From a virus: a stretch of 10,754 nucleotides of DNA. The notes under the pieces are model-generated. The model made no database searches. It was not told the origin of the DNA and saw only the letters and a list, made by a program, of their open reading frames with translations. This document shows positions 323-7,844 of the stretch, one piece after another. Positions within the stretch are counted from its first letter, which is position 1. Each line of letters begins with the position of its first letter. The position numbers and the translations under genes were made by a program. Location: the UHGV virus genome UHGV-0300898. One strand, given 5' to 3'.

Positions 323-450
323 GGGTGACCCAAGCTAAATTTTAATGATGTTACATATCTTTAGTTTAAACTGTATTATTTCCATACGTACTCCTTTAAA
401 GCCAACTGACTGTCTCCCTTTAATAATATCTATCCAAAAAATAATAGAAA

Positions 451-506: not shown

Positions 507-2801
507 TTACTTACCAGCAGCAGCTTTGCCTTCGCCAGCAACGTTACCTGCTACACCACCTTCGGTTTGTTTCTGACCGTTCTGTTCAACAGAAACATTG
601 TAAGCCAGTTTTTCTTCAACCAGTTTGGTGATGCCTTTAACCCAGATCAGACCAGTGATCGGGCAGTGGCAGATGTGCGCGTTACGCGGCTGTACGGCCA
701 GCTCTTTAGAGGTAGAGCCGTTACGCTGAATGTTGATGTTAGTAACCATGATCGGAGACCAGAAGTGGTTACCCCAGTTCAGCACGTTGTAGGAACCATC
801 GTCCGCAGTCGGAACTTTCAGGAACCATTGCAGACGACGAGTCCAGGAACCGTCAGCTGCGTTGTAGATACGCCAGCGGTCATCGTTGGTGGTGATCACT
901 TCGTATTCGTAGCGATCGCCCAGCAGACGTTGGTCGCCCTGTACCAGCAGCAGCATGGATGCAGTCGGTTCGTCGGTTGCAATAACAACCTTCGGCAGAA
1001 TGTCCGGATCGGCAGTGTACAGACGCAGCGCAGGAATGAAGCGAGATTCCTGGATAGCCTGAGTTACCTGATTACCGATACGCTGTACCAGGCCCTGACG
1101 AGCGTTGATCAGTGCATCTTTGGTATCCAGGGACTGTACAACTTCATCAACGTTGTAGTCAGACTCTTTGAACCACGGAGCAACCCAGTGACGGCCCAGA
1201 CCACGAATGGCCGGTTTGTCCCACGGAGTGATCATGCTTGCAGCAGCGTTACGTACCGCTTCGGTGTAAGACAGCGTCTGAGTGATAGCCAGCTGTTCGT
1301 TACGGATGTTAACTGCGGAAATCAGGTCGTCCAGACGTTCGGTATCGTCGTATTCAACACCAACCGGAGACTTGGTCAGAATCGGAGAACCGTATTGCAG
1401 TTTGTAGTTTTCTTGTTCCCAGATTGGGTCAAGCAGCAGACCCTGGGTACGACGGTTTTCGTTGGTACGAGTACCATCGAAGCGCCAGCCCATCAGTTCG
1501 AGCTTCAGACCTTCCAGAACAACTTTGCCGGTACCAGATTTGGTATCAACCTTGTTACCGGTAGCGTCGTACAGACCTTCGATTTCCAGTTTGTGACCCG
1601 CGATGTCAACTTTACCACCAAACTGACCGGTAGTGAACAGAGACATGTTGATGGTGATCACATAACGCAGGGTGTAGGAGTTCTGTTCCAGTGTTTTCAG
1701 AGCCGGAATAGCTGCACCAGTCCAGTCGGTAGTTTTCGCGTTCAGAGAGAATGCGGTACGACGGAATTGCAGTACCAGCTCACGGCCATCGCCTTCAGCA
1801 GGACGCTGGAAGGTTGCGAACTGCATGTCACGAACGTGCAGTTTGATGAATTTACCTGCTTTCGCTTCTTCGGTCGGTTTACGTACAGAAATCAGCAGGC
1901 TGCCCAGAGCACAACCCGGTGCGATTTCATCAGTTTCGTCGTAACCTTCCTGAACGATACCCGGATGCGCAGACAGCTGGAACAGGTTCAGAGTGTCTTT
2001 AGCAAAGCTCAGGTAGTTAGTCGGGTACGGAGGTACACGGCCCAGACGAACAGATTCGTTCGGTACCAGATCTTCGCTTACGAAGTATTCAGCGTTTTCA
2101 CCGGTTTCCATTACGTAAGGAACGATGTTGATCGCTTCGTCCTGGAGAACGGTGTGGTCGGTCAGCGCGTTGTGCAGCGGACGACGATGATCTTCAACAA
2201 CGTCTTTGCTCAGCAGTGCGTTCATTACACCGCGAGAAACGGTGGTCACTTTGGTACGTACGGTAATACCAACATCGTTGGTGTCAACAGTGATGGTCGG
2301 GAACAGAGTCTCAGCGAAACGAGACTGGGTTTCCAGAGCACGTACGTTCAGCGTCCAGGTCAGACCCAGGTTTTTGTCGTAGTCTTTGTTGGTGTAGTAT
2401 TCCTGAGCGACAACCATACGCTCTTTGCCCCAGTCGCCGTTACCAGCTTGGGAACCAGGAATCGCAACGTCCAGGTTAAAACGGCTATGGAATTCTGGTT
2501 TAGCGTATTCTTGCGCTACTTTTTCTTGCAGGTCCATACCGTGACCAGCAGCACCCAGAATCATTGCAGAAGCAACTTCCGCAGCGTGGGACATTTTCTT
2601 ACCGCCAGCAAACGCGTTTGCGTAGTGCTGTGCAGCGTCGTCACGCAGGGTACCAAAAACTTTCGTGTTGCTACGTACAGATTCACCAGCAACGATGGTG
2701 TTCCACATTTCGCCAGCACTGTTGTTACTAATGACGCTTTGTACCAGCGAGTTACCAGCTTGTACGAGTTTCTCCAGATTAGAGATTCGGGTATCTTTCA
2801 T
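507..2801 (-). CDS. major virion structural protein, probably major capsid protein of a jumbo-type phage (764 aa); tail sheath is the alternative
   Basis: Longest ORF in the window. Codon usage is strongly biased toward high-expression codons (CGT, GGT, CTG, AAC, ACC, GAA), so strongly that the antisense strand carries an uninterrupted 752-aa artefactual ORF. SD TAAGGT lies 9 nt upstream of the ATG and a strong terminator follows the stop. Size matches the ~750-aa capsid proteins of phiKZ-like phages as I recall them. No homology search was possible. Confidence 0.85.
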   Translation of the reverse strand: MKDTRISNLEKLVQAGNSLVQSVISNNSAGEMWNTIVAGESVRSNTKVFGTLRDDAAQHYANAFAGGKKMSHAAEVASAMILGAAGHGMDLQEKVAQEYAKPEFHSRFNLDVAIPGSQAGNGDWGKERMVVAQEYYTNKDYDKNLGLTWTLNVRALETQSRFAETLFPTITVDTNDVGITVRTKVTTVSRGVMNALLSKDVVEDHRRPLHNALTDHTVLQDEAINIVPYVMETGENAEYFVSEDLVPNESVRLGRVPPYPTNYLSFAKDTLNLFQLSAHPGIVQEGYDETDEIAPGCALGSLLISVRKPTEEAKAGKFIKLHVRDMQFATFQRPAEGDGRELVLQFRRTAFSLNAKTTDWTGAAIPALKTLEQNSYTLRYVITINMSLFTTGQFGGKVDIAGHKLEIEGLYDATGNKVDTKSGTGKVVLEGLKLELMGWRFDGTRTNENRRTQGLLLDPIWEQENYKLQYGSPILTKSPVGVEYDDTERLDDLISAVNIRNEQLAITQTLSYTEAVRNAAASMITPWDKPAIRGLGRHWVAPWFKESDYNVDEVVQSLDTKDALINARQGLVQRIGNQVTQAIQESRFIPALRLYTADPDILPKVVIATDEPTASMLLLVQGDQRLLGDRYEYEVITTNDDRWRIYNAADGSWTRRLQWFLKVPTADDGSYNVLNWGNHFWSPIMVTNINIQRNGSTSKELAVQPRNAHICHCPITGLIWVKGITKLVEEKLAYNVSVEQNGQKQTEGGVAGNVAGEGKAAAGK

Positions 2802-2813
2802 TTGTTTAATACC

Positions 2814-3338
2814 TTAATGAGATAAATGACATGCGTATAATTGCGTCAGCACTTCGTTAGCGGCAAACTGCGTTGAGGTACTGAAGCAGTCATCCACGAC
2901 GCGAGTCTTGGTACGCATATATTTAAAAAGTTCTGCGCAGAACATCTTTTTCGCAGCGTGGTCTTCACCCGAAGAAAAACCCGAACCGGACTTTGCTTCT
3001 GCAAATGACGCCACAATCGTATCACCACGTTGAGTAAACACCCAACGTACGCGACAAGGAATTGTTTCCCCATATAAATCGTCAAGGGAAACCTTTTCGC
3101 CTGATTCGACCAGACGTAACACCTGATCATAATATTTACCTGGAAGCACAGGCGGAGCCATCAGTGCTTTATAAATAGCAGAACGACTTACTTCAGGTAA
3201 GATGATAGAACTGAAACCATTCGGACAGTCATATAACCAGTTAAAGAACCCTGCCTGGAGCAATTCTATACTTTTAACGGCAGCGCCTTTATCTATGTTA
3301 GGTTGAACTTCCCACGGTGGACTAAAACGAATTTGCAT
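2814..3338 (-). CDS. hypothetical protein (174 aa)
   Basis: Complete ORF in the track. SD GGAG lies 9 nt upstream of the ATG at 3338. Its stop TAA (2816..2814) overlaps the SD of the downstream 764-aa gene, giving a tightly packed co-directional pair. Confidence 0.7.
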   Translation of the reverse strand: MQIRFSPPWEVQPNIDKGAAVKSIELLQAGFFNWLYDCPNGFSSIILPEVSRSAIYKALMAPPVLPGKYYDQVLRLVESGEKVSLDDLYGETIPCRVRWVFTQRGDTIVASFAEAKSGSGFSSGEDHAAKKMFCAELFKYMRTKTRVVDDCFSTSTQFAANEVLTQLYACHLSH

Positions 3339-3351
3339 TTAAGGATGCTCC

Positions 3352-4914
3352 ATGAATAACAAAATGATGTTGATAACCGCCTTAGCCACATTATACGCTG
3401 AAAGTCTTCTGACCGATCCTGAAAAGGACCACGACATCATAAGAAAAGTGCTGTTAGAGGCTAAGCTTCCTGATTACGCAGAGGAAGGTGACGAACGTGC
3501 CGCCCTCGTCGAAATCAAGGATATCATCACATCCATCATAGACGGCGGTATGCCTTACGACCACACAAACGTCATGAAACGTTTGAAACTGGCCACTACG
3601 CAAATACGTCCTCTATACGATACGATTACCAAATTCCTGGAAGATGATATTCCAGAAGAACCAGAAGCACGCATCGAGCATCTTAATCGCCAAGTAGCAC
3701 AATACTACTTTCAGTTACGTCAAGCTATTCAAGGCGTACAACTGAAACAAAAATTGGGTCGTACGTTAGGCGCACTGAACGGTACCGAAACGCGCGTTGA
3801 TTTACAAACGGCGCTCAACGACCTTAAGGATACCTTATCCACGTTCAGTGAACGCTCTCATAATAAGATTCCTTCTCTGGTAGGGGAATTGATTACTGAC
3901 AATAAAGCACCTTTCGTGCACGTATTCGACTCTATCAGTAAGAAAGCGGCAGGGAACGGGTTGCGTACAGGTTGGAAAGCAATTAACCAGATGCTCGGTT
4001 GTAACAAAGGGATCACCGAAGAACTCTGGCTGATGCCTGCTCTCCCCTTTAACTGTAAGTCATTATTCAGTTTATTGCTCTCTATTAGCATTCCCGTTTT
4101 CAACACCCCAGAAAAGGTGATGGCGAATGTTAAGGGTGATCTACAACCGGTTATTCTAGATTTAAGTTTAGAAAACGAATTGGATGTTAACTTGGCTTAC
4201 GCGTATCAGGCACTATACGGACACTTTGAAGGTACAGCCCCGGTAATGGTTGCGCCAGAAACCGCAACTGACGAAGAAAAAGCGTCACATAATGCACAAA
4301 TGTCAGACTACCTCTGTAGTAAGATGCGGGCGAACGGTTGGGAGTATATTTTCCAAAAACACACAAACTCCGATTTTAAAATTCACTATTTAAACGATTT
4401 GATTTTAGATTTAAAACGTCGAGGTTATCATGTAGCTGGAATACGCGGAGACTATTTCGGTACTATCAGCAAAGCAGGGCACGGTAACGGCATTGCGGGT
4501 AGCGACATTAAAGAAATTTATCGTATCGCGCGAAACATCCAAGTGGTACGTAATCGTGGTTTCCTGTTAGCACCACACCAAATCTCACCAGAAGGCAAAA
4601 AATTAAAAGCACTCGACCCAGCAAGTTTCTGTAAGAACTTACCTGGTCGTGGTCTTCACGACAACTGCTCTAGCTTAGACAACGAAGCTGACGGTGAGAT
4701 GTATTTTAACAAACGTGTCGTCAACGGTCACAGCTATTTAGAAGTACAACGCGGTAAACACCGTACCATTATTGATACCAAAGAAGCTTATCATTATACT
4801 GTAATACCTTTCCGCGATGTTGGCATTTTGCCATGGGATTGTGATAAAGAAGAAACTGTAACAGCCTCGTCGATTAACGTATTTACCGGCGGCATGGGTG
4901 ACGAACTCTTTTGA
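3352..4914 (+). CDS. hypothetical protein (520 aa); helical, charged N-terminal region; no recognisable catalytic motif
   Basis: Complete ORF. SD AAGGA at 3340-3344 with a 7-nt spacer to the ATG. TGA stop is followed immediately by a GC hairpin at 4919-4936. The only plus-strand gene in the window. Confidence 0.8.
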   Translation: MNNKMMLITALATLYAESLLTDPEKDHDIIRKVLLEAKLPDYAEEGDERAALVEIKDIITSIIDGGMPYDHTNVMKRLKLATTQIRPLYDTITKFLEDDIPEEPEARIEHLNRQVAQYYFQLRQAIQGVQLKQKLGRTLGALNGTETRVDLQTALNDLKDTLSTFSERSHNKIPSLVGELITDNKAPFVHVFDSISKKAAGNGLRTGWKAINQMLGCNKGITEELWLMPALPFNCKSLFSLLLSISIPVFNTPEKVMANVKGDLQPVILDLSLENELDVNLAYAYQALYGHFEGTAPVMVAPETATDEEKASHNAQMSDYLCSKMRANGWEYIFQKHTNSDFKIHYLNDLILDLKRRGYHVAGIRGDYFGTISKAGHGNGIAGSDIKEIYRIARNIQVVRNRGFLLAPHQISPEGKKLKALDPASFCKNLPGRGLHDNCSSLDNEADGEMYFNKRVVNGHSYLEVQRGKHRTIIDTKEAYHYTVIPFRDVGILPWDCDKEETVTASSINVFTGGMGDELF

Positions 4915-4918
4915 GTCT

Positions 4919-4936
4919 GGGGAGCTTCGGCTCCCC
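4919..4936 (+). terminator. stable hairpin GGGGAGC-UUCG-GCUCCCC directly after the 520-aa gene; no U-tract, so either a 3' stability element or a non-canonical terminator
   Basis: Perfect 7-bp GC stem with a UUCG tetraloop, 4 nt after the stop codon. Followed by CTATAACCCC rather than a T-run. Confidence 0.4.
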
Positions 4937-5019
4937 CTATAACCCCTTATGCGTCTCGAAAAACAAAAAAAAACAGAAGGCTATTAATTATGAACGGAAA
5001 ACAACTACCGAACTAAGTA

Positions 5020-5046
5020 GGGGGTGGTAGCAACACCCCCTTTATT
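5020..5046 (+). terminator. intrinsic terminator, GGGGGTG-loop-CACCCCC plus TTTATT (first member of a three-copy terminator family)
   Basis: 7-bp stem 5020-5026/5034-5040, 7-nt loop, then TTTATT at 5041-5046. Preceded by an 8-codon mini-ORF (4990..5016) that has an SD. Confidence 0.55.
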
Positions 5047-5159
5047 AGTTAGTAACTTATCTCCTTAGAGGTGGTTGCTGAACATTATGGTTGTTAACCG
5101 TTTTCATTACCTTTCGTAATGTTGTAAAAACGTCAACAACTTTATGTGTTGATGCCGTA

Positions 5160-5189
5160 CAGCAGAGACTGGCGGAACAGTCTCTGCTG
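5160..5189 (+). other. perfect 12-bp hairpin (CAGCAGAGACTG / CAGTCTCTGCTG, 6-nt loop) abutting repeat copy 1
   Basis: Exact reverse-complement arms at 5160-5171 and 5178-5189. The position-equivalent hairpin before copy 2 (5561-5586) has an unrelated sequence but the same architecture. Confidence 0.7.
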
Positions 5190-5232
5190 CTTTAACTTCT
5201 CTTTGGAAAAGTTAAAGCTATGAAAAGGGGTG
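5187..5232 (+). repeat. 46-nt conserved element, copy 1 (CTGCTTTAACTTCTCTTTGGAAAAGTTAAAGCTATGAAAAGGGGTG); contains a 9-bp inverted repeat CTTTAACTT-N10-AAGTTAAAG
   Basis: 45/46 identical to 5586..5631, the single mismatch being 5224 A versus 5623 T. The copies are offset by exactly 399 bp. The internal inverted repeat is 5190-5198/5209-5217. Confidence 0.85.
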
Positions 5233-5250
5233 GTGGTGCACCCCTTTTTA
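5227..5250 (+). terminator. intrinsic terminator GGGGTG-GTGGTG-CACCCC plus TTTTTA (family copy 2)
   Basis: 6-bp GC stem, 6-nt loop, then a T5 run at 5245-5249. It begins inside the conserved element. Confidence 0.55.
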
Positions 5251-5291
5251 TTATACTTACGACCACCATCTCGGCAGGTTACTGTACGAGG

Positions 5292-5326
5292 AGGAGAGGC
5301 GCTGACACGCCTCTCCTTTATTTGTT
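5292..5326 (+). terminator. intrinsic terminator, stem GGAGAGGCG/CGCCTCTCC with loop CTGACA, followed by TTTATTTGTT
   Basis: Perfect 9-bp stem 5293-5301/5308-5316, extendable with flanking A-T and G-U pairs, followed by a T-rich tract. Confidence 0.6.
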
Positions 5327-5498
5327 AGTAGTGTTCACTCCTCTTTTCAGTGAATATCCGCGTGAAACGGTTGGTAGACGGTTTTAACCGTTTATCCATG
5401 CCGAGCTGACTATACTTGTAGATACGTTGCTGTAAATTGGTCTTTGCTGCACTCTGCTCTGCAAGCATTTTGTCGGTAAAGTAGTAACCATTGTTCAT
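5325..5498 (-). CDS. small basic hypothetical protein, 57 aa (MNNGYYFTDKMLAEQSAAKTNLQQRIYKYSQLGMDKRLKPSTNRFTRIFTEKRSEHY)
   Basis: Below the 60-aa cutoff of the ORF track and found by hand translation. ATG at 5498..5496 is preceded by SD GAGGG with a 6-nt spacer; TAA stop at 5327..5325. It lies between the two copies of the 46-nt element. Confidence 0.35.
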   Translation of the reverse strand: MNNGYYFTDKMLAEQSAAKTNLQQRIYKYSQLGMDKRLKPSTNRFTRIFTEKRSEHY

Positions 5499-5531
5499 GG
5501 TAAGCCCTCTTTGTAGGGTGATTAAAGAAAT

Positions 5532-5551
5532 CCACTACGGAAACGTAGTGG
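5532..5551 (+). other. perfect 8-bp hairpin CCACTACG-GAAA-CGTAGTGG with a GNRA-type tetraloop
   Basis: Exact inverted repeat with a GAAA loop, about 35 nt upstream (minus sense) of the 57-aa ORF start. Confidence 0.6.
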
Positions 5552-5560
5552 TGTTGTAAA

Positions 5561-5586
5561 GGGTACGCTGTAGCACCAGCGTACCC
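5561..5586 (+). other. perfect 10-bp hairpin (GGGTACGCTG / CAGCGTACCC, loop TAGCAC) abutting repeat copy 2
   Basis: Same position relative to the conserved element as the 5160-5189 hairpin, with a completely different stem sequence. Confidence 0.7.
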
Positions 5587-5631
5587 TGCTTTAACTTCTC
5601 TTTGGAAAAGTTAAAGCTATGATAAGGGGTG
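5586..5631 (+). repeat. 46-nt conserved element, copy 2
   Basis: See copy 1; 45/46 identity at a 399-bp offset. Confidence 0.85.
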
Positions 5632-5656
5632 TGACAGCACCCCTTTATTTTATTTA
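5626..5656 (+). terminator. intrinsic terminator GGGGTG-TGACAG-CACCCC plus TTTATTTTATTT (family copy 3)
   Basis: Same stem as 5227-5244 with a different loop, followed by a long T-rich tract. Confidence 0.6.
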
Positions 5657-5749
5657 GTAGTTACTTCTCCTTTCGGTGAAGATTTGTACTCGTCGATTAT
5701 TAGAAGGTTTAAACCTTTTATTTAATCCAAGCTGTTGAATTTGCGAAAA

Positions 5750-5799
5750 TAAATAAAGTGTACCCCTAATCCTTTTCGGGATTAGGGGTTGCTTTTATT
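5750..5799. terminator. bidirectional intrinsic terminator (10-bp perfect stem CCCCTAATCC/GGATTAGGGG)
   Basis: Stem 5763-5772/5779-5788 with loop TTTTCG. A T-rich tract follows on the plus strand (5789-5799) and an A-rich tract precedes it (5750-5760), which is a U-tract on the minus strand. Sits directly after the stop of the 271-aa minus-strand gene. Confidence 0.75.
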
Positions 5800-6610
5800 T
5801 AGTCGCTACGTATTGAACATGGCCACATTCTTTACATTCCACGTTGGCTTTCGGGATTGTCAGGCCGGTTAAAGGAACACGGATTTGATACTGTGCTCCA
5901 CATTCTTCACAAACAAAATCGTATTCTGGATAGACACGACCTTCTAATTTCTCTTCTTTCCTTAGTGTGCCTGCTAAGAACAGCATCGCACCTAACGCTT
6001 CATTAATCTGCTGTTCCCATTCTCCGTCTAACGGGTAAGCGAACGCACGAGTCAACGTTTCCACCATCTCTGGAGTATTACTTACATAAACGTGTTTCAG
6101 TTCAAACTCAACACGTTGCAAGCCGAACAATACGCGCGCCGTCACGGTAACATTATCCAACGTTTGTGCAAACACAACGGGATTATCGTCACCATACATT
6201 GCGAATAACGCAGCACGTTCGTATTCGATATCACTCCACTCGATTAGTTCTACAGATTTAATCGCTTCCGCAATCTCAGCATTACCGAACGTTTCGTGTT
6301 CCAATAATCCGACGATAACTTCATTCAACGATTTCAATTGCTGTAATCGAATCGTAGGATCGGTATTCACGATAAGTAAACGATGCATTCTGGATTTCAA
6401 CCAGTTAATCGTTCCTTCTACACCGCCCCCAAACGAGCAGATGCTTATCACTTCAGGTTCACGAAGGATAAGAGTTGATTTTCCTGCTGCCGTACTCAAG
6501 TAGAGTTTAAAAGACTTATCGTTAGACTCTGCAACGATGGCAATGTCTTCAGTTGGAACGAAGTTTTCATTGCTCAGCCCACGCGGAAAATAATCTTTAA
6601 TAGTAATCAT
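5795..6610 (-). CDS. hypothetical protein with a C-terminal CxxC-N22-CxxC zinc-ribbon (271 aa)
   Basis: Complete ORF. SD GGAG is 8 nt upstream of the ATG at 6610. C-terminus reads ...VCEECGAQYQIRVPLTGLTIPKANVECKECGHVQY. Terminator immediately downstream. Confidence 0.75.
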   Translation of the reverse strand: MITIKDYFPRGLSNENFVPTEDIAIVAESNDKSFKLYLSTAAGKSTLILREPEVISICSFGGGVEGTINWLKSRMHRLLIVNTDPTIRLQQLKSLNEVIVGLLEHETFGNAEIAEAIKSVELIEWSDIEYERAALFAMYGDDNPVVFAQTLDNVTVTARVLFGLQRVEFELKHVYVSNTPEMVETLTRAFAYPLDGEWEQQINEALGAMLFLAGTLRKEEKLEGRVYPEYDFVCEECGAQYQIRVPLTGLTIPKANVECKECGHVQYVATK

Positions 6611-6625
6611 CTTTTATGCTCCAAT

Positions 6626-6659
6626 TAATAAAAAAATTAAGGGCACCCGAAGGTGCCTT
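6626..6659 (-). terminator. intrinsic terminator for the small lipoprotein-like gene (stem with UUCG tetraloop plus UAAUUUUUUUAUU in minus-strand RNA)
   Basis: Stem 6640-6647/6652-6659 (8 bp including one G-U pair) with plus-strand loop CGAA. The plus-strand A-run 6631-6636 gives a U7 tract on the minus strand, 5 nt after the TAA stop at 6665. Confidence 0.75.
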
Positions 6660-6664
6660 ATACA

Positions 6665-6808
6665 TTAACCACGACCAGTGCACTGTGCAACGGAATTACC
6701 GTTGTCGATGCAAGTGTCGTAGCCTTTGTCGATATCCAGGTACAGGCAACCCAGAACAACAGCGATAACAACAGCGAAGATAGCTTTTTTGTGTTTTACA
6801 GAAATCAT
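6665..6808 (-). CDS. small putative lipoprotein or membrane protein, 47 aa (MISVKHKKAIFAVVIAVVLGC|LYLDIDKGYDTCIDNGNSVAQCTGRG)
   Basis: Below the ORF-track cutoff. ATG at 6808..6806 is preceded by the perfect SD AGGAG with a 7-nt spacer. N-terminus has a basic region, then a hydrophobic stretch, then VVLGC, which fits the lipobox pattern. Leu at +2. Dedicated terminator downstream. Confidence 0.55.
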   Translation of the reverse strand: MISVKHKKAIFAVVIAVVLGCLYLDIDKGYDTCIDNGNSVAQCTGRG

Positions 6809-6902
6809 GATATAACTCCTAATTAGGTATTCGATAAATGAGTATTACGTAAACTCTCACCTAGGTAATATATATCTGAAATCTTTTTGAATCCATATAC
6901 CC

Positions 6903-6932
6903 TCTAGAACGCTCTAAAACGCATTCTAACGC
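6903..6932. repeat. three tandem 10-nt repeats (TCTAGAACGC / TCTAAAACGC / ATTCTAACGC) in the upstream region of the small lipoprotein gene
   Basis: Period of 10 bp, one helical turn. The first two units are 9/10 identical and the third shares CTAACGC. Located 95-125 nt upstream (minus sense) of the ATG at 6808. Confidence 0.6.
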
Positions 6933-7000
6933 AATTTTCTTTTTAAAGGGTAATTAGTCGTCTTAATGGAGAAATGACTTCTGTGTGGCGTTTAGGGATA

Positions 7001-7046
7001 AATAAAAGGTATTCCCGTTACCCACAGAGGTAACGGGAAGTTTTTA
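7001..7046. terminator. bidirectional intrinsic terminator (11-bp stem TTCCCGTTACC/GGTAACGGGAA) ending the minus-strand operon
   Basis: Stem 7012-7022/7029-7039 with loop CACAGA. The plus-strand T5 run at 7041-7045 overlaps the operon stop codon, and the A-rich tract at 7001-7008 gives UUUUAUU on the minus strand. Confidence 0.75.
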
Positions 7047-7844
7047 CAGACCTTGCATCTTATCCATTACAGCGATTTCAGGATCGCTAATGCCCGTCTT
7101 CGAAGAAATCATAAAGCGCTTATCGCTAATAGCTTCTACGGATTCGCGAATAAACAATGACTTTTCTTCCGCAACAGGAAGAATAGAATCGTTATCCTGC
7201 GGACCCACAAGCTGACAACTGAAAGGTACATAGCTGTTGAAGGTCACATAAGGACCTAACTGCAAGACCGGATACACTTCATTGAAGTTATTTGATGTGC
7301 CACTGTCTGTAGAAATAACAGAATAGCGCACCACCGCACGCACAGCCGTGGTATATTCAGGATCGCGGGCTTCACCCACTACGGTAAAACGAAACGCATT
7401 GAAGTCATAGTCTTCCGACTCACTAAAGTGTGAAGGGAGAATACGTTCAATATACTGAGGATAGGTTTCCTGTTGCCCTGGGGTAACCGCTGCAGCCAAT
7501 TTCTGAGCATAGAAGTAACAATAAGCAAAGCCGTATTGCGCTTCTAAAGCACCAGACACCACAGCAGTTGTGATCGCGTGCAGGAACAACAAGTGACCTA
7601 ACGTCCCTTTTTCTTCGATTGGTAATAAGCGACAATTCTGTACACCGTCTACGGTATAGATAACAGAAATCGTTTTGTCAGCGCTGGACGCCATGATGTA
7701 ATCCAACTGGCGTTGTTCGCCACCAGGAATAACATTAAGGCAACGTTCTAACAACTTCGACGGTTTCGAAAAATTCTCTTCTTCGAATTTGTCGATTTGA
7801 ATTAACGTTTGACCAGACATTCTGAAAGTAAGTAGATTACTCAT
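7044..7844 (-). CDS. hypothetical protein (266 aa, starting MSNLLTFRMSGQ...)
   Basis: The ORF track starts at a TTG (7850). I prefer the ATG two codons downstream (7844..7842), which has SD AAAGGA with a 7-nt spacer. Last gene of the operon; terminator hairpin directly after the TAA. Confidence 0.75.
   Translation of the reverse strand: MSNLLTFRMSGQTLIQIDKFEEENFSKPSKLLERCLNVIPGGEQRQLDYIMASSADKTISVIYTVDGVQNCRLLPIEEKGTLGHLLFLHAITTAVVSGALEAQYGFAYCYFYAQKLAAAVTPGQQETYPQYIERILPSHFSESEDYDFNAFRFTVVGEARDPEYTTAVRAVVRYSVISTDSGTSNNFNEVYPVLQLGPYVTFNSYVPFSCQLVGPQDNDSILPVAEEKSLFIRESVEAISDKRFMISSKTGISDPEIAVMDKMQGL

What the first reader, a model, noticed from the sequence alone, without database searches (positions are those of the whole stretch)
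5187..5631. Small basic ORF bracketed by the direct repeats, giving a cassette-like arrangement
A 57-aa minus-strand ORF (5325..5498) with a good SD (GAGGG, 6-nt spacer) lies between the two direct copies of the 46-nt element and is bounded by hairpins on both sides. Direct repeats flanking a small gene resemble a moron or mobile regulatory cassette, or a duplication substrate in which recombination between the repeats would delete or amplify the ORF. The protein is rich in Lys and Arg, which would suit a nucleic-acid-binding or regulatory role.
Basis: partly seen in the sequence, partly recalled or inferred. Interest (0 to 1): 0.5.

Follow-up and report, generated by a model that had tools for sequence, protein, structure and literature searches.

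The report
Shuffling small-gene array in a jumbo phage
The small gene and its two flanking repeats are one unit of a fast-rearranging row of related small genes in a giant E. coli phage, in which a conserved hairpin element in front of each gene marks where units are swapped, gained or lost; what that element does is not known.

Summary
In detail: two 46-nt copies (45/46 identical) flank a real 57-aa basic gene, with hairpins on both sides. The window comes from a PhiKZ-type jumbo phage about 80% identical to SPN3US and phiEaH2, probably a 'Bapsvirus'. The 880 bp between its helicase and a 271-aa gene hold a decayed tandem array of paralogous small genes. Each unit is a conserved 30-nt palindrome (E), a GC hairpin, a leader hairpin with SD, the ORF and a terminator hairpin. 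The upstream repeat belongs to ORF57's own leader. The downstream repeat belongs to the next gene, which a 113-bp deletion has destroyed here. Across 48 related loci I found at least 16 architectures with 1-3 E copies, including genomes whose flanks are 99% identical. ORF57 follows four different neighbours, always joined through E. Erskineviruses have no array and no E. E occurs only at this locus, so it is not a genome-wide promoter and not a dispersed element. The three deletions in this window are microhomology scars, not repeat-mediated. The closest analogue is PeSL-mediated shuffling in T4-type phages, but E has no sigma-70 promoter and is confined to one locus. Its molecular role is inferred, most likely a sense-strand RNA leader hairpin.

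The parts
6864..6879 (-). Nearest copy of the phage's recognisable promoter-like motif (TCAGATATATATTACC, followed by TAGGTGAGAG). It lies upstream of a 47-aa ORF, the 271-aa gene and the array.
   Evidence: Perfect match in the window. In the complete relative genome about 20 plausible copies, nearly all gene-sense, carry the extended consensus. None lies inside the array.
5762..5789 (.). Terminator hairpin after the 271-aa gene. This is the upstream boundary of the array.
   Evidence: Conserved in all related loci.
5654..5740 (-). Remnant of paralogue A2: the last 28 codons plus the stop, with no start codon. The deletion scar, an imperfect microhomology of about 7-10 nt, lies at 5733-5742.
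   Evidence: 79% aa identity to residues 28-55 of the intact 55-aa A2 of L008. BLAST segments overlap at 5733-5742, and 409 bp are missing relative to L008.
5624..5645 (.). HP1: GGGGTG-N6-CACCCC terminator-like hairpin that closes the upstream cassette.
   Evidence: Its loop is the reverse complement of the L005 loop.
5586..5631 (-). 46-nt repeat, copy 2, with core E at 5588-5617. On the gene-sense strand E forms a 13-bp hairpin (one G.U pair) with a CAAA loop. It is the first element of ORF57's own leader.
   Evidence: In every locus that holds ORF57, an E copy lies about 119 nt before its ATG.
5560..5587 (-). HP3 (57-type): an 11-bp GC hairpin that abuts E with no spacer. Its sequence type always follows the downstream ORF.
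   Evidence: 7 of 11 pairs show compensatory changes.
5499..5551 (-). Rest of the ORF57 leader: hairpin HP4 (5532-5551), then a nearly invariant 32-nt stretch with the SD GAGGG (5505-5509).
   Evidence: Outside the loops the leader is almost unchanged, while third codon positions differ by 21-22%.
5325..5498 (-). ORF57: a 57-aa basic protein, the only intact member of the small-gene family in this window.
   Evidence: Homologues are P0001-P0008. pN/pS is 0.13-0.23. The family profile finds 61 clusters, nearly all on jumbo-phage-sized contigs or their fragments. AlphaFold2 predicts a helix at residues 3-35.
5290..5319 (.). HPx: terminator-like hairpin directly after ORF57.
5257..5289 (-). Remnant of paralogue B: the last 10 codons plus the stop. 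The deletion scar TCG lies at 5287-5289.
   Evidence: 91% identity to residues 51-61 of the 61-aa ORF-B of L006. 264 bp are missing relative to L009, with a 3-nt overlap.
5223..5248 (.). HP1': the terminator-like hairpin that closed cassette B.
   Evidence: (I3).
5187..5232 (-). 46-nt repeat, copy 1, with core E at 5189-5218. It is the leader element of the next cassette (C), not part of ORF57's unit.
   Evidence: In L005, L006 and L004 the same E, HP3 and leader precede an intact 53-aa ORF-C.
5160..5189 (-). HP3 (C-type) hairpin abutting E copy 1. Its loop is the reverse complement of the loop in L006.
5057..5107 (-). 16-aa in-frame stump of ORF-C, left by a 113-bp deletion between two GAAAA repeats (scar at 5101-5105).
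   Evidence: 5-nt overlap of the two BLAST segments against L005.
5019..5041 (.). Terminal hairpin of the array, before the convergent helicase gene that ends at 4914.

Best explanation
ORF57 and the two 46-nt repeats are one unit, plus the start of the next unit, of a tandem array of paralogous small basic-protein genes. The array lies between the 271-aa gene and the convergent DnaB-like helicase of a Bapsvirus-like Chimalliviridae jumbo phage.

Each cassette reads [E palindrome - GC hairpin HP3 - leader hairpin and SD - ORF of 50-60 aa - terminator hairpin HP1]. Upstream of E, the tract 'ORF tail - HP1 - linker - E' (about 60-100 nt) is shared by all cassettes. Downstream of E, the sequence is private to each ORF type.

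Shown: homologous recombination or gene conversion within the shared tract, whose right-hand edge is the end of E, joins cassettes in new orders and adds or removes them. Microhomology deletions then erode them. This window's array is a decayed version carrying three such scars, and ORF57 is the only intact gene.

Inferred: E acts on the gene-sense strand as a 13-bp RNA hairpin at the head of each cassette's leader, for example as a stability, processing or translation-control signal, perhaps bound by a protein. I put this at about 0.4. Its conservation also makes it the homology patch for shuffling.
For: Paralogy:
- ORF57/A2 and C/A2 are significant even against a notional database of 1e6 sequences (E about 2e-3). 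The other pairs are weaker, but share position, size, pI and the motif KQxxFxQR[IVLM].
- The family profile recovers all types and the two SPN3US 48-aa genes.

Real gene: pN/pS is 0.13-0.23 at pS up to 0.42.

Array variation:
- At least 16 complete architectures occur among 48 loci.
- Junction types through E are A1>A2, A1>B, A1>C, A1>57, A2>B, A2>57, B>C, B>57, 57>B and B>A2.
- Genomes with flanks 98.5-99.2% identical differ in architecture. One example is [E|A2|E|57] against [E|A2|E|B|dC] at 99.17%. The window against L009 is 98.9%.
- The HP3 type always follows the downstream ORF, whereas HP1, linker and E-loop alleles are shared across junction types. In L134 two copies share an identical HP1-linker-left arm.
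- Chimeric ORFs exist: P0021 is A2 joined to 57, and P0022 is A1 with a B tail.

Empty sites: phiEaH2 and Asesino have neither the array nor E.

Scars in the window.

Structure:
- Both copies fold into four consecutive hairpins, with z-scores of -8.8 and -8.5.
- 98.3% of cells are paired. HP3 has 7 of 11 compensatory pairs. In E, 9 of 13 pairs never vary, and the T.G pair is invariant; it would be a C.A mismatch on the other strand.
- The variant E' keeps 13 pairs through two G.U pairs.
- Variation in E is concentrated in the apical loop (CAAA, GAAA, CGAA, GAAAA).
- The centre of E is never inverted in 95 copies, whereas HP1, HP3 and HP4 loops flip freely.
- Outside the loops the leader is almost invariant, against 21-22% divergence at third codon positions.
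- A covariance model gives weak hits on the sense strand at the two homologous leaders of SPN3US.
Against: There are no transcript data, so it is unknown whether E is transcribed or where transcription starts.

Covariation within E itself is thin. Only one position varies on both sides, and an A.A mismatch allele is common (21 of 95 copies). That allele could be a recombinant or a tolerated mismatch.

The first cassette (A1) has no E. SPN3US paralogues lack a clear E. So E is not required to express a family member.

The many loci are closely related, so the counts are not independent events.

The deletions actually visible in this window are not at E.

Shuffling by crossover at E is inferred from mosaic patterns; it was not observed directly.
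Confidence: 0.65

Rival explanations
1. E is a DNA-level promoter or operator. Each cassette is then an independent, moron-like transcription unit that starts at the E/HP3 boundary, so HP3 would be a 5'-terminal stabilising hairpin.
For: E lies 8-9 nt after a terminator-like hairpin followed by a T-run. It is the only sequence shared by all cassettes upstream of their ORFs, at a constant 112-119 nt from the ATG. HP3 begins with a purine. The array holds no copy of the phage's recognisable promoter motif.
Against: E is unique to this locus in a complete 222-kb genome, so a phage RNA polymerase would need a promoter class used nowhere else. There is no sigma-70-like site in E, no TATG on the sense strand, and no resemblance to the GATAKATATTAYC motif. 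The invariant T.G pair and the G.U pairs of E' fit a sense-strand hairpin better than a duplex site. A1 is expressed without E.
Confidence: 0.2
2. E has no regulatory role. It is kept alike only by concerted evolution, because it lies in the tract where cassettes recombine. On this reading it is a recombination-homogenised or selfish palindrome.
For: Identical HP1-linker-E alleles occur at different junction types and twice within one genome, L134. E is dispensable for A1 and for the SPN3US paralogues. A mismatch allele is common.
Against: Orientation and stem sequence are invariant in 95 copies, although neighbouring hairpin loops invert freely and stems change by compensation. The whole leader is far more conserved than synonymous sites. 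Homogenisation alone does not explain why E is so much less variable than HP1 within the same tract.
Confidence: 0.15
3. The hairpins serve the opposite strand. On the + strand, HP3 followed by the T-rich arm of E (GCTTTAACTTCTCTTT) would form an intrinsic terminator that stops transcription running in from the convergent helicase gene.
For: The terminator scan flags HP3 plus the E arm on the + strand at 5160-5189 and 5560-5587, and HP1 and HPx as well. This would explain why HP3 and E abut with no spacer.
Against: The T-tract is interrupted and is sequestered in E's own 13-bp stem. On the + strand E has a C.A mismatch where the sense strand has G.U. One terminator after the helicase gene would be enough. 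The idea does not explain conservation of E's 3' arm and loop orientation.
Confidence: 0.08
4. E is the core site of a site-specific or structure-specific recombination system, like integron attC or lox: inverted arms around an asymmetric spacer. Cassettes would be excised and inserted as circles.
For: The shape fits: 10-13-nt inverted arms with an asymmetric centre whose orientation is fixed. Boundaries at E are sharp. An allele combines the left arm of one type with the right arm of another.
Against: PGAP annotates no integrase or recombinase among the 225 features of the complete relative genome. E lies within a longer homologous tract, so ordinary homologous recombination is sufficient. 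E is found at no other site and in no other element.
Confidence: 0.05

Closest known systems
PeSL (promoter-early stem-loop) cassettes of T4-type phages (Arbiol et al. 2010, PMC2839356; Comeau et al. 2014, PMC4122927)
   Same: A short conserved intergenic element with a stem-loop or terminator component lies immediately upstream of small genes of unknown function in a hyperplastic region. Close relatives differ by insertion, deletion and replacement of these genes, with the element as the point of exchange.
   Different: A PeSL contains a sigma-70-type early promoter and occurs about 50 times per genome. E has no such promoter. Its host phage family transcribes with its own RNA polymerases (PMC7598289). 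E is confined to one array. The genes it separates are paralogues of each other rather than unrelated genes. Mini-circles were not tested.
Morons of lambdoid and other tailed phages (my own knowledge: Juhala et al. 2000; Hendrix et al. 2000)
   Same: Extra genes with their own terminator hairpins lie between two genes that are adjacent in related phages, phiEaH2 and Asesino.
   Different: An own promoter is not shown. Base composition is not atypical. The insert is a tandem paralogue array rather than a single foreign gene.
Small 48-aa genes between the helicase and the 286-aa gene of Salmonella phage SPN3US (RefSeq ACQ60_gp194 and gp195)
   Same: Same locus, strand, size and basic character. 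The two genes are paralogous to each other (E = 1.7e-6) and are recovered by the family profile. Each is followed by a GGGGTG..CACCCC hairpin. The first leader carries an AT-rich hairpin plus a GC hairpin that gives a weak hit to the covariance model.
   Different: There is no recognisable E sequence. The SPN3US record shows two genes; architecture variation in that genus was not examined.
Integron gene cassettes with attC sites (my own knowledge)
   Same: Arrays of small ORFs are separated by imperfect palindromes with fixed orientation, and cassette content and order vary.
   Different: No integrase is annotated. E precedes the ORF it travels with. Ordinary homology is available for recombination. 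The array is confined to one phage locus.

Membership tests
PeSL (T4-type promoter-early stem-loop) | Contains a sigma-70-type early promoter (-35 and -10 boxes) | tested here: not met
   The consensus scan of 4850-7100 finds a single promoter-like site, inside the ORF57 coding sequence, against 4.1 expected from shuffles. None lies in E.
PeSL (T4-type promoter-early stem-loop) | Contains a stable stem-loop that can act as a terminator or attenuator | tested here: met
   HP1, E and HP3 are predicted hairpins with z-scores near -8.7. The region has 11 terminator-like sites against 2.1 expected. HP3 shows compensatory changes. Termination itself was not measured.
PeSL (T4-type promoter-early stem-loop) | Dozens of copies per genome, concentrated in several hyperplastic regions | tested here: not met
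   nhmmer and the covariance model find one copy in the complete 221,873-bp relative genome, at this locus only. Collection scans find E only at this locus.
PeSL (T4-type promoter-early stem-loop) | Close relatives differ by indels or replacements of small genes, with the element at the junction | tested here: met
   At least 16 architectures and 11 junction types through E, found in genomes whose flanks are 98.5-99.2% identical.
PeSL (T4-type promoter-early stem-loop) | Recombination between neighbouring elements yields circular DNAs | not testable with these tools
   This needs outward-facing PCR or read-level data from phage DNA.
Moron | Lies between two genes that are adjacent in a related phage | tested here: met
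   In phiEaH2 and Asesino the helicase and the 292-aa gene are separated only by their terminators. This holds for the array as a whole.
Moron | Own promoter and own terminator | tested here: inconclusive
   Terminator-like hairpins are present. No recognisable promoter of either the sigma-70 type or the phage's own motif lies in the array.
Moron | Base composition unlike the surrounding genome | tested here: not met
   GC is 0.41-0.44 across the array and its flanks.
Tandem array of paralogous genes | Neighbouring ORFs and remnants are homologous to one another | tested here: met
   Alignment and phmmer. The profile search recovers all types. The remnants in the window match the intact A2, B and C genes of relatives.
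Integron-like cassette array | A site-specific recombinase (integrase) is encoded with the array | tested here: not met
   No integrase or recombinase appears among the 225 PGAP-annotated features of NZ_CP173450.1. This rests on annotation only; I did not run a profile scan of every protein.
Any Rfam RNA family | Match at or above the family's gathering score | tested here: not met
   The best match scores 23.9 bits against a threshold of 42 (McaS). All matches fall far below threshold.

The most novel reading that the evidence does not exclude
E is a dedicated cis-site of a self-contained cassette system in a nucleus-forming jumbo phage. On one version, it is an RNA operator bound by the small basic proteins the array encodes, making this a self-regulating and diversifying family, possibly anti-defence or host-takeover factors. 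On the other, it is a structure-specific recombination site that lets cassettes be exchanged as units, an integron-like system without a known integrase.
Probability: 0.12. Interest if true: 0.75.

Novelty: new variant of a known kind. Interest (0 to 1): 0.45.

Why it matters
Regions of phage genomes packed with fast-changing small genes of unknown function are where anti-defence and host-takeover genes tend to lie. How such regions turn over is documented mainly for T4-type phages, through PeSLs. Here the same kind of modular shuffling appears in a Chimalliviridae jumbo phage that does not depend on host sigma-70 transcription. It is organised around a different, locus-specific hairpin element, and hundreds of natural variants are already available in bacterial assemblies ('Bapsvirus', PMC12768965). 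That makes two questions directly testable: what the element does, and what drives the turnover of this gene family. The frequent inversions of hairpin loops also suggest that these sequences often form hairpins or cruciforms in phage DNA in vivo.

Tried and rejected
- Megablast of the region against INPHARED gave no match. A distant search with the 61-nt element gave only chance hits with E >= 0.4.
- tblastn of ORF57 against phages gave only chance hits. PHROGs and Pfam gave nothing for ORF57.
- An exact-sequence look-up of the window's ORF57 found nothing on record.
- Rfam gave nothing near threshold.
- A 16-mer half-site scan of IMG/VR returned more than 120 chance hits and was useless.
- Two metagenome hits, L180 and L186, are unrelated palindromes with none of the array's genes or hairpins around them. 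There were no hits in the GTDB representative genomes.
- I considered a sigma-70 promoter in E and rejected it.
- I considered the PhiKZ late TATG motif. It occurs only on the non-coding (+) strand, next to E, and varies between copies.
- I considered the phage's own GATAKATATTAYC promoter class. It is absent from the array.
- I first took the allele with an AAC left arm and a GAT right arm as a clean recombinant. In the larger sample it is common (21 of 95), so it may equally be a tolerated mismatch or an evolutionary intermediate.
- A literature search for SPN3US gp71-73 expression data found nothing.
- I did not run a fold search, because the model is a single helix with mean pLDDT 70.

Full report
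**Observation**

The two copies of the 46-nt element (5187-5232 and 5586-5631) differ at one base. The repeat finder extends the pair to 105 nt at 75% identity with 399-nt spacing, and nothing else in the window comes close. The core of each copy is a perfect palindrome, GCTTTAACTT-N10-AAGTTAAAGC. ORF 5325..5498 (-) encodes 57 aa, with GAGGG six bases before the ATG and hairpins on both sides.

**Context**

- The window encodes a PhiKZ-type major capsid protein (PF25620, 2.9e-208), a divergent DnaB-like helicase, and head and virion proteins.
- The nearest deposited phages are Erwinia phages Asesino and phiEaH2 and the Salmonella SPN3US group. They are about 80% identical in DNA and 83-85% identical in the helicase protein.
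- Much closer relatives (96-99%) are IMG/VR contigs of 220-225 kb and contigs of about 222 kb in E. coli and Shigella assemblies. One of these is a complete 221,873-bp 'plasmid', NZ_CP173450.1.
- This fits the recently proposed genus 'Bapsvirus' (PMC12768965).
- The finding lies in the 880-bp zone between the 271-aa gene (5795-6610, -) and the convergent helicase (3352-4914, +).

**What the locus is**

Read on the minus strand, the zone contains more than ORF57. It also holds three gene remnants:
- the last 28 codons of a paralogue, A2 (5654-5740);
- the last 10 codons of another, B (5257-5289);
- a 16-codon stump of a third, C (5057-5107).

All three are intact in relatives. The three deletions are defined by overlapping BLAST segments:
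- 409 bp, with about 7-10 nt of microhomology at 5733-5742;
- 264 bp, with TCG at 5287-5289;
- 113 bp, with GAAAA at 5101-5105.

A1, A2, 57, B, C and the two 48-aa SPN3US genes align as one family of basic proteins of 48-61 aa. They share the motif KQxxFxQR[IVLM]. A profile of the family finds 61 clusters, essentially all from jumbo-phage contigs (up to 244 kb) or fragments of them; none has a name or a Pfam domain. ORF57 is under purifying selection, with pN/pS 0.13-0.23 at pS up to 0.42. AlphaFold2 predicts a long helix at residues 3-35 (pLDDT about 86) and a low-confidence basic tail.

**Cassette anatomy**

Every family gene except the first in an array is preceded, 112-119 nt before its ATG, by E. 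The order is as follows:
- the terminator-like hairpin HP1 of the previous gene (GGGGTG-N6-CACCCC followed by a T-run);
- an 8-9-nt linker;
- E;
- a GC hairpin, HP3, with no spacer after E;
- a second leader hairpin, HP4;
- the SD and the ORF.

Both copies in the window fold this way, with z-scores of -8.8 and -8.5.

The upstream repeat is therefore the head of ORF57's own leader. The downstream repeat is the head of the leader of ORF-C, which has been destroyed in this window. The two repeats are not the ends of one unit.

**Variation among relatives**

- phiEaH2 and Asesino have no small genes and no E at this site. SPN3US has two family genes but no recognisable E.
- Among 48 loci of the Bapsvirus-like clade there are at least 16 complete architectures with one to three E copies.
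- ORF57 is found after A1, A2, B or an A2 remnant. B is found after A1, A2, a 57 remnant or the 271-aa gene. C is found after A1 or B. A B>A2 junction also exists.
- Single-E arrays without ORF57 exist: A1|E|C in L010 and in NZ_CP173450.1.
- Architectures differ between genomes whose flanks are 98.5-99.2% identical. One example is [E|A2|E|57] against [E|A2|E|B|dC] at 99.17%. The window and its closest relative, L009, differ at 98.9%.
- The sequence to the right of E (the HP3 type and the leader) always follows the downstream ORF. HP1, linker and E-loop alleles to the left are shared across junction types, and occur twice within one genome, L134.
- Chimeric ORFs (P0021, P0022) and a genome with a window-like ORF57 coding sequence but an L131-like leader show that recombination also occurs inside the units.

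I infer that cassettes are reassorted by homologous recombination or gene conversion in the shared tract, whose right edge is E, and are then eroded by microhomology deletions. The mosaic pattern is shown. The recombination events themselves are inferred.

**What E is not**

- In the complete relative genome, an E profile (nhmmer) and a covariance model of HP1-E-HP3 each find exactly one copy, at this locus.
- Scans of IMG/VR, metagenomes and GTDB genomes find E only at this locus of related phages, apart from two unrelated chance palindromes.
- E is therefore not a genome-wide promoter and not a dispersed element.
- The phage does have a clear repeated promoter-like motif, AAAATAnnTCAGATAKATATTAYCTAGGTGAGAG. 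It has about 20 plausible copies, nearly all gene-sense, and the window copy lies at 6864-6879. This motif fits the AT-rich early-promoter type described for such phages (PMC7598289). It is unlike E and is absent from the array.
- E has no sigma-70-like promoter and matches no Rfam family.

**What E most likely is**

- On the gene-sense strand E forms a 13-bp stem with a 4-5-nt loop. One of the 13 pairs is a T.G pair that is invariant in 30 distinct copies; on the other strand it would be a C.A mismatch.
- The variant E' keeps 13 pairs through two G.U pairs.
- Variation is concentrated in the apical loop.
- Only one stem position changes on both sides (A:T to T:A), and an A.A allele is common there. 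Covariation within E is therefore weak.
- By contrast, HP3 has 7 of 11 compensatory pairs.
- The loops of HP1, HP3 and HP4 occur as reverse-complement pairs between near-identical genomes, with at least eight such pairs for HP3. The centre of E is never inverted in 95 copies. This points to an orientation-specific function.
- Outside the hairpin loops the ORF57 leader is almost invariant, while third codon positions differ by 21-22%.
- The covariance model gives weak sense-strand hits at the two homologous leaders of SPN3US. The first of these has an AT-rich hairpin, UUUAUUUUC-CGAAAA-GAAAAUAAA, between a terminator and a GC hairpin.

I therefore favour a sense-strand RNA leader hairpin, at about 0.4. 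The rivals are a private promoter or operator (0.2), a recombination-homogenised patch with no function (0.15), an opposite-strand terminator (0.08) and a recombinase site (0.05). No transcript data were available.

**Comparison with known systems**

The behaviour matches PeSL-mediated modular shuffling in T4-type phages (PMC2839356, PMC4122927). It fails two defining PeSL features, the sigma-70 promoter and the genome-wide distribution. The array as a whole meets the moron criterion of lying between genes that are adjacent in relatives. It has normal base composition and no demonstrated promoter.

**Verdict**

I class it as a new variant of a known kind of phage genome plasticity, of moderate interest.

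Noticed in passing
window 5566-5571, 5171-5176 and 5632-5637; related loci L005-L009 and L131-L179: The loops of hairpins HP1, HP3 and HP4 occur as exact reverse complements between near-identical genomes, for example GTGCTA/TAGCAC, TTCCGC/GCGGAA and CTGTCA/TGACAG. There are at least eight such pairs for HP3 alone. These are frequent small inversions of hairpin loops, which suggests hairpin or cruciform formation in the phage DNA. The centre of E is never inverted.
   Followed up: partly
window 6864-6879 (-), and a weaker copy at about 418-433 (-): A promoter-like motif, TCAGATATATATTACC followed by TAGGTGAGAG and preceded by an A/T-rich stretch. About 20 plausible copies, nearly all gene-sense, occur in the complete relative genome NZ_CP173450.1. 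It is probably the promoter class of the virion RNA polymerase (early genes) for this phage group.
   Followed up: partly
window 6665-6808 (-): A 47-aa hydrophobic ORF (MISVKHKKAIFAVVIAVVLGCLYLDI...) lies directly downstream of the promoter-like motif and is followed by a hairpin at 6642-6657. It is called as a gene in all related loci. It may be a small membrane protein.
   Followed up: no
L002 (SPN3US) 6123-6210 and 5874-5950, minus strand: The covariance model of HP1-E-HP3 gives weak hits (19.8 and 19.5 bits) at the leaders of the two SPN3US small genes. The first has an AT-rich hairpin between a terminator and a GC hairpin, which may be a diverged counterpart of E.
   Followed up: partly
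proteins P0021 and P0022; locus L148: Natural chimeras occur within the family. P0021 has an A2 N-terminal half and a 57 C-terminal half. P0022 is A1 with the tail of B. L148 combines a window-like ORF57 coding sequence (2.3% different) with a leader of another lineage (11.7% different).
   Followed up: partly
loci L131-L140 (P0004): In many E. coli assemblies ORF57 is annotated as 70 aa (MDFFNHPTKRAYTMNNGYY...). A 2-nt insertion there puts an upstream ATG, which lies within leader hairpin HP4, in frame. The SD-preceded MNNGYY start is the one conserved across genomes. In the window the upstream codons are out of frame.
   Followed up: yes
whole window; NZ_CP173450.1: The source phage has no close relative among deposited phage genomes (best about 80% DNA identity). 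It is common as contigs of about 222 kb in E. coli and Shigella isolate assemblies, and once as a circular 'plasmid' record. This fits the carrier-state 'Bapsvirus' lineage described in PMC12768965.
   Followed up: partly
window 567-2825 (+): A 752-aa ORF lies on the strand opposite the major capsid gene (507-2801, -). It is almost certainly a shadow ORF of the capsid gene.
   Followed up: no
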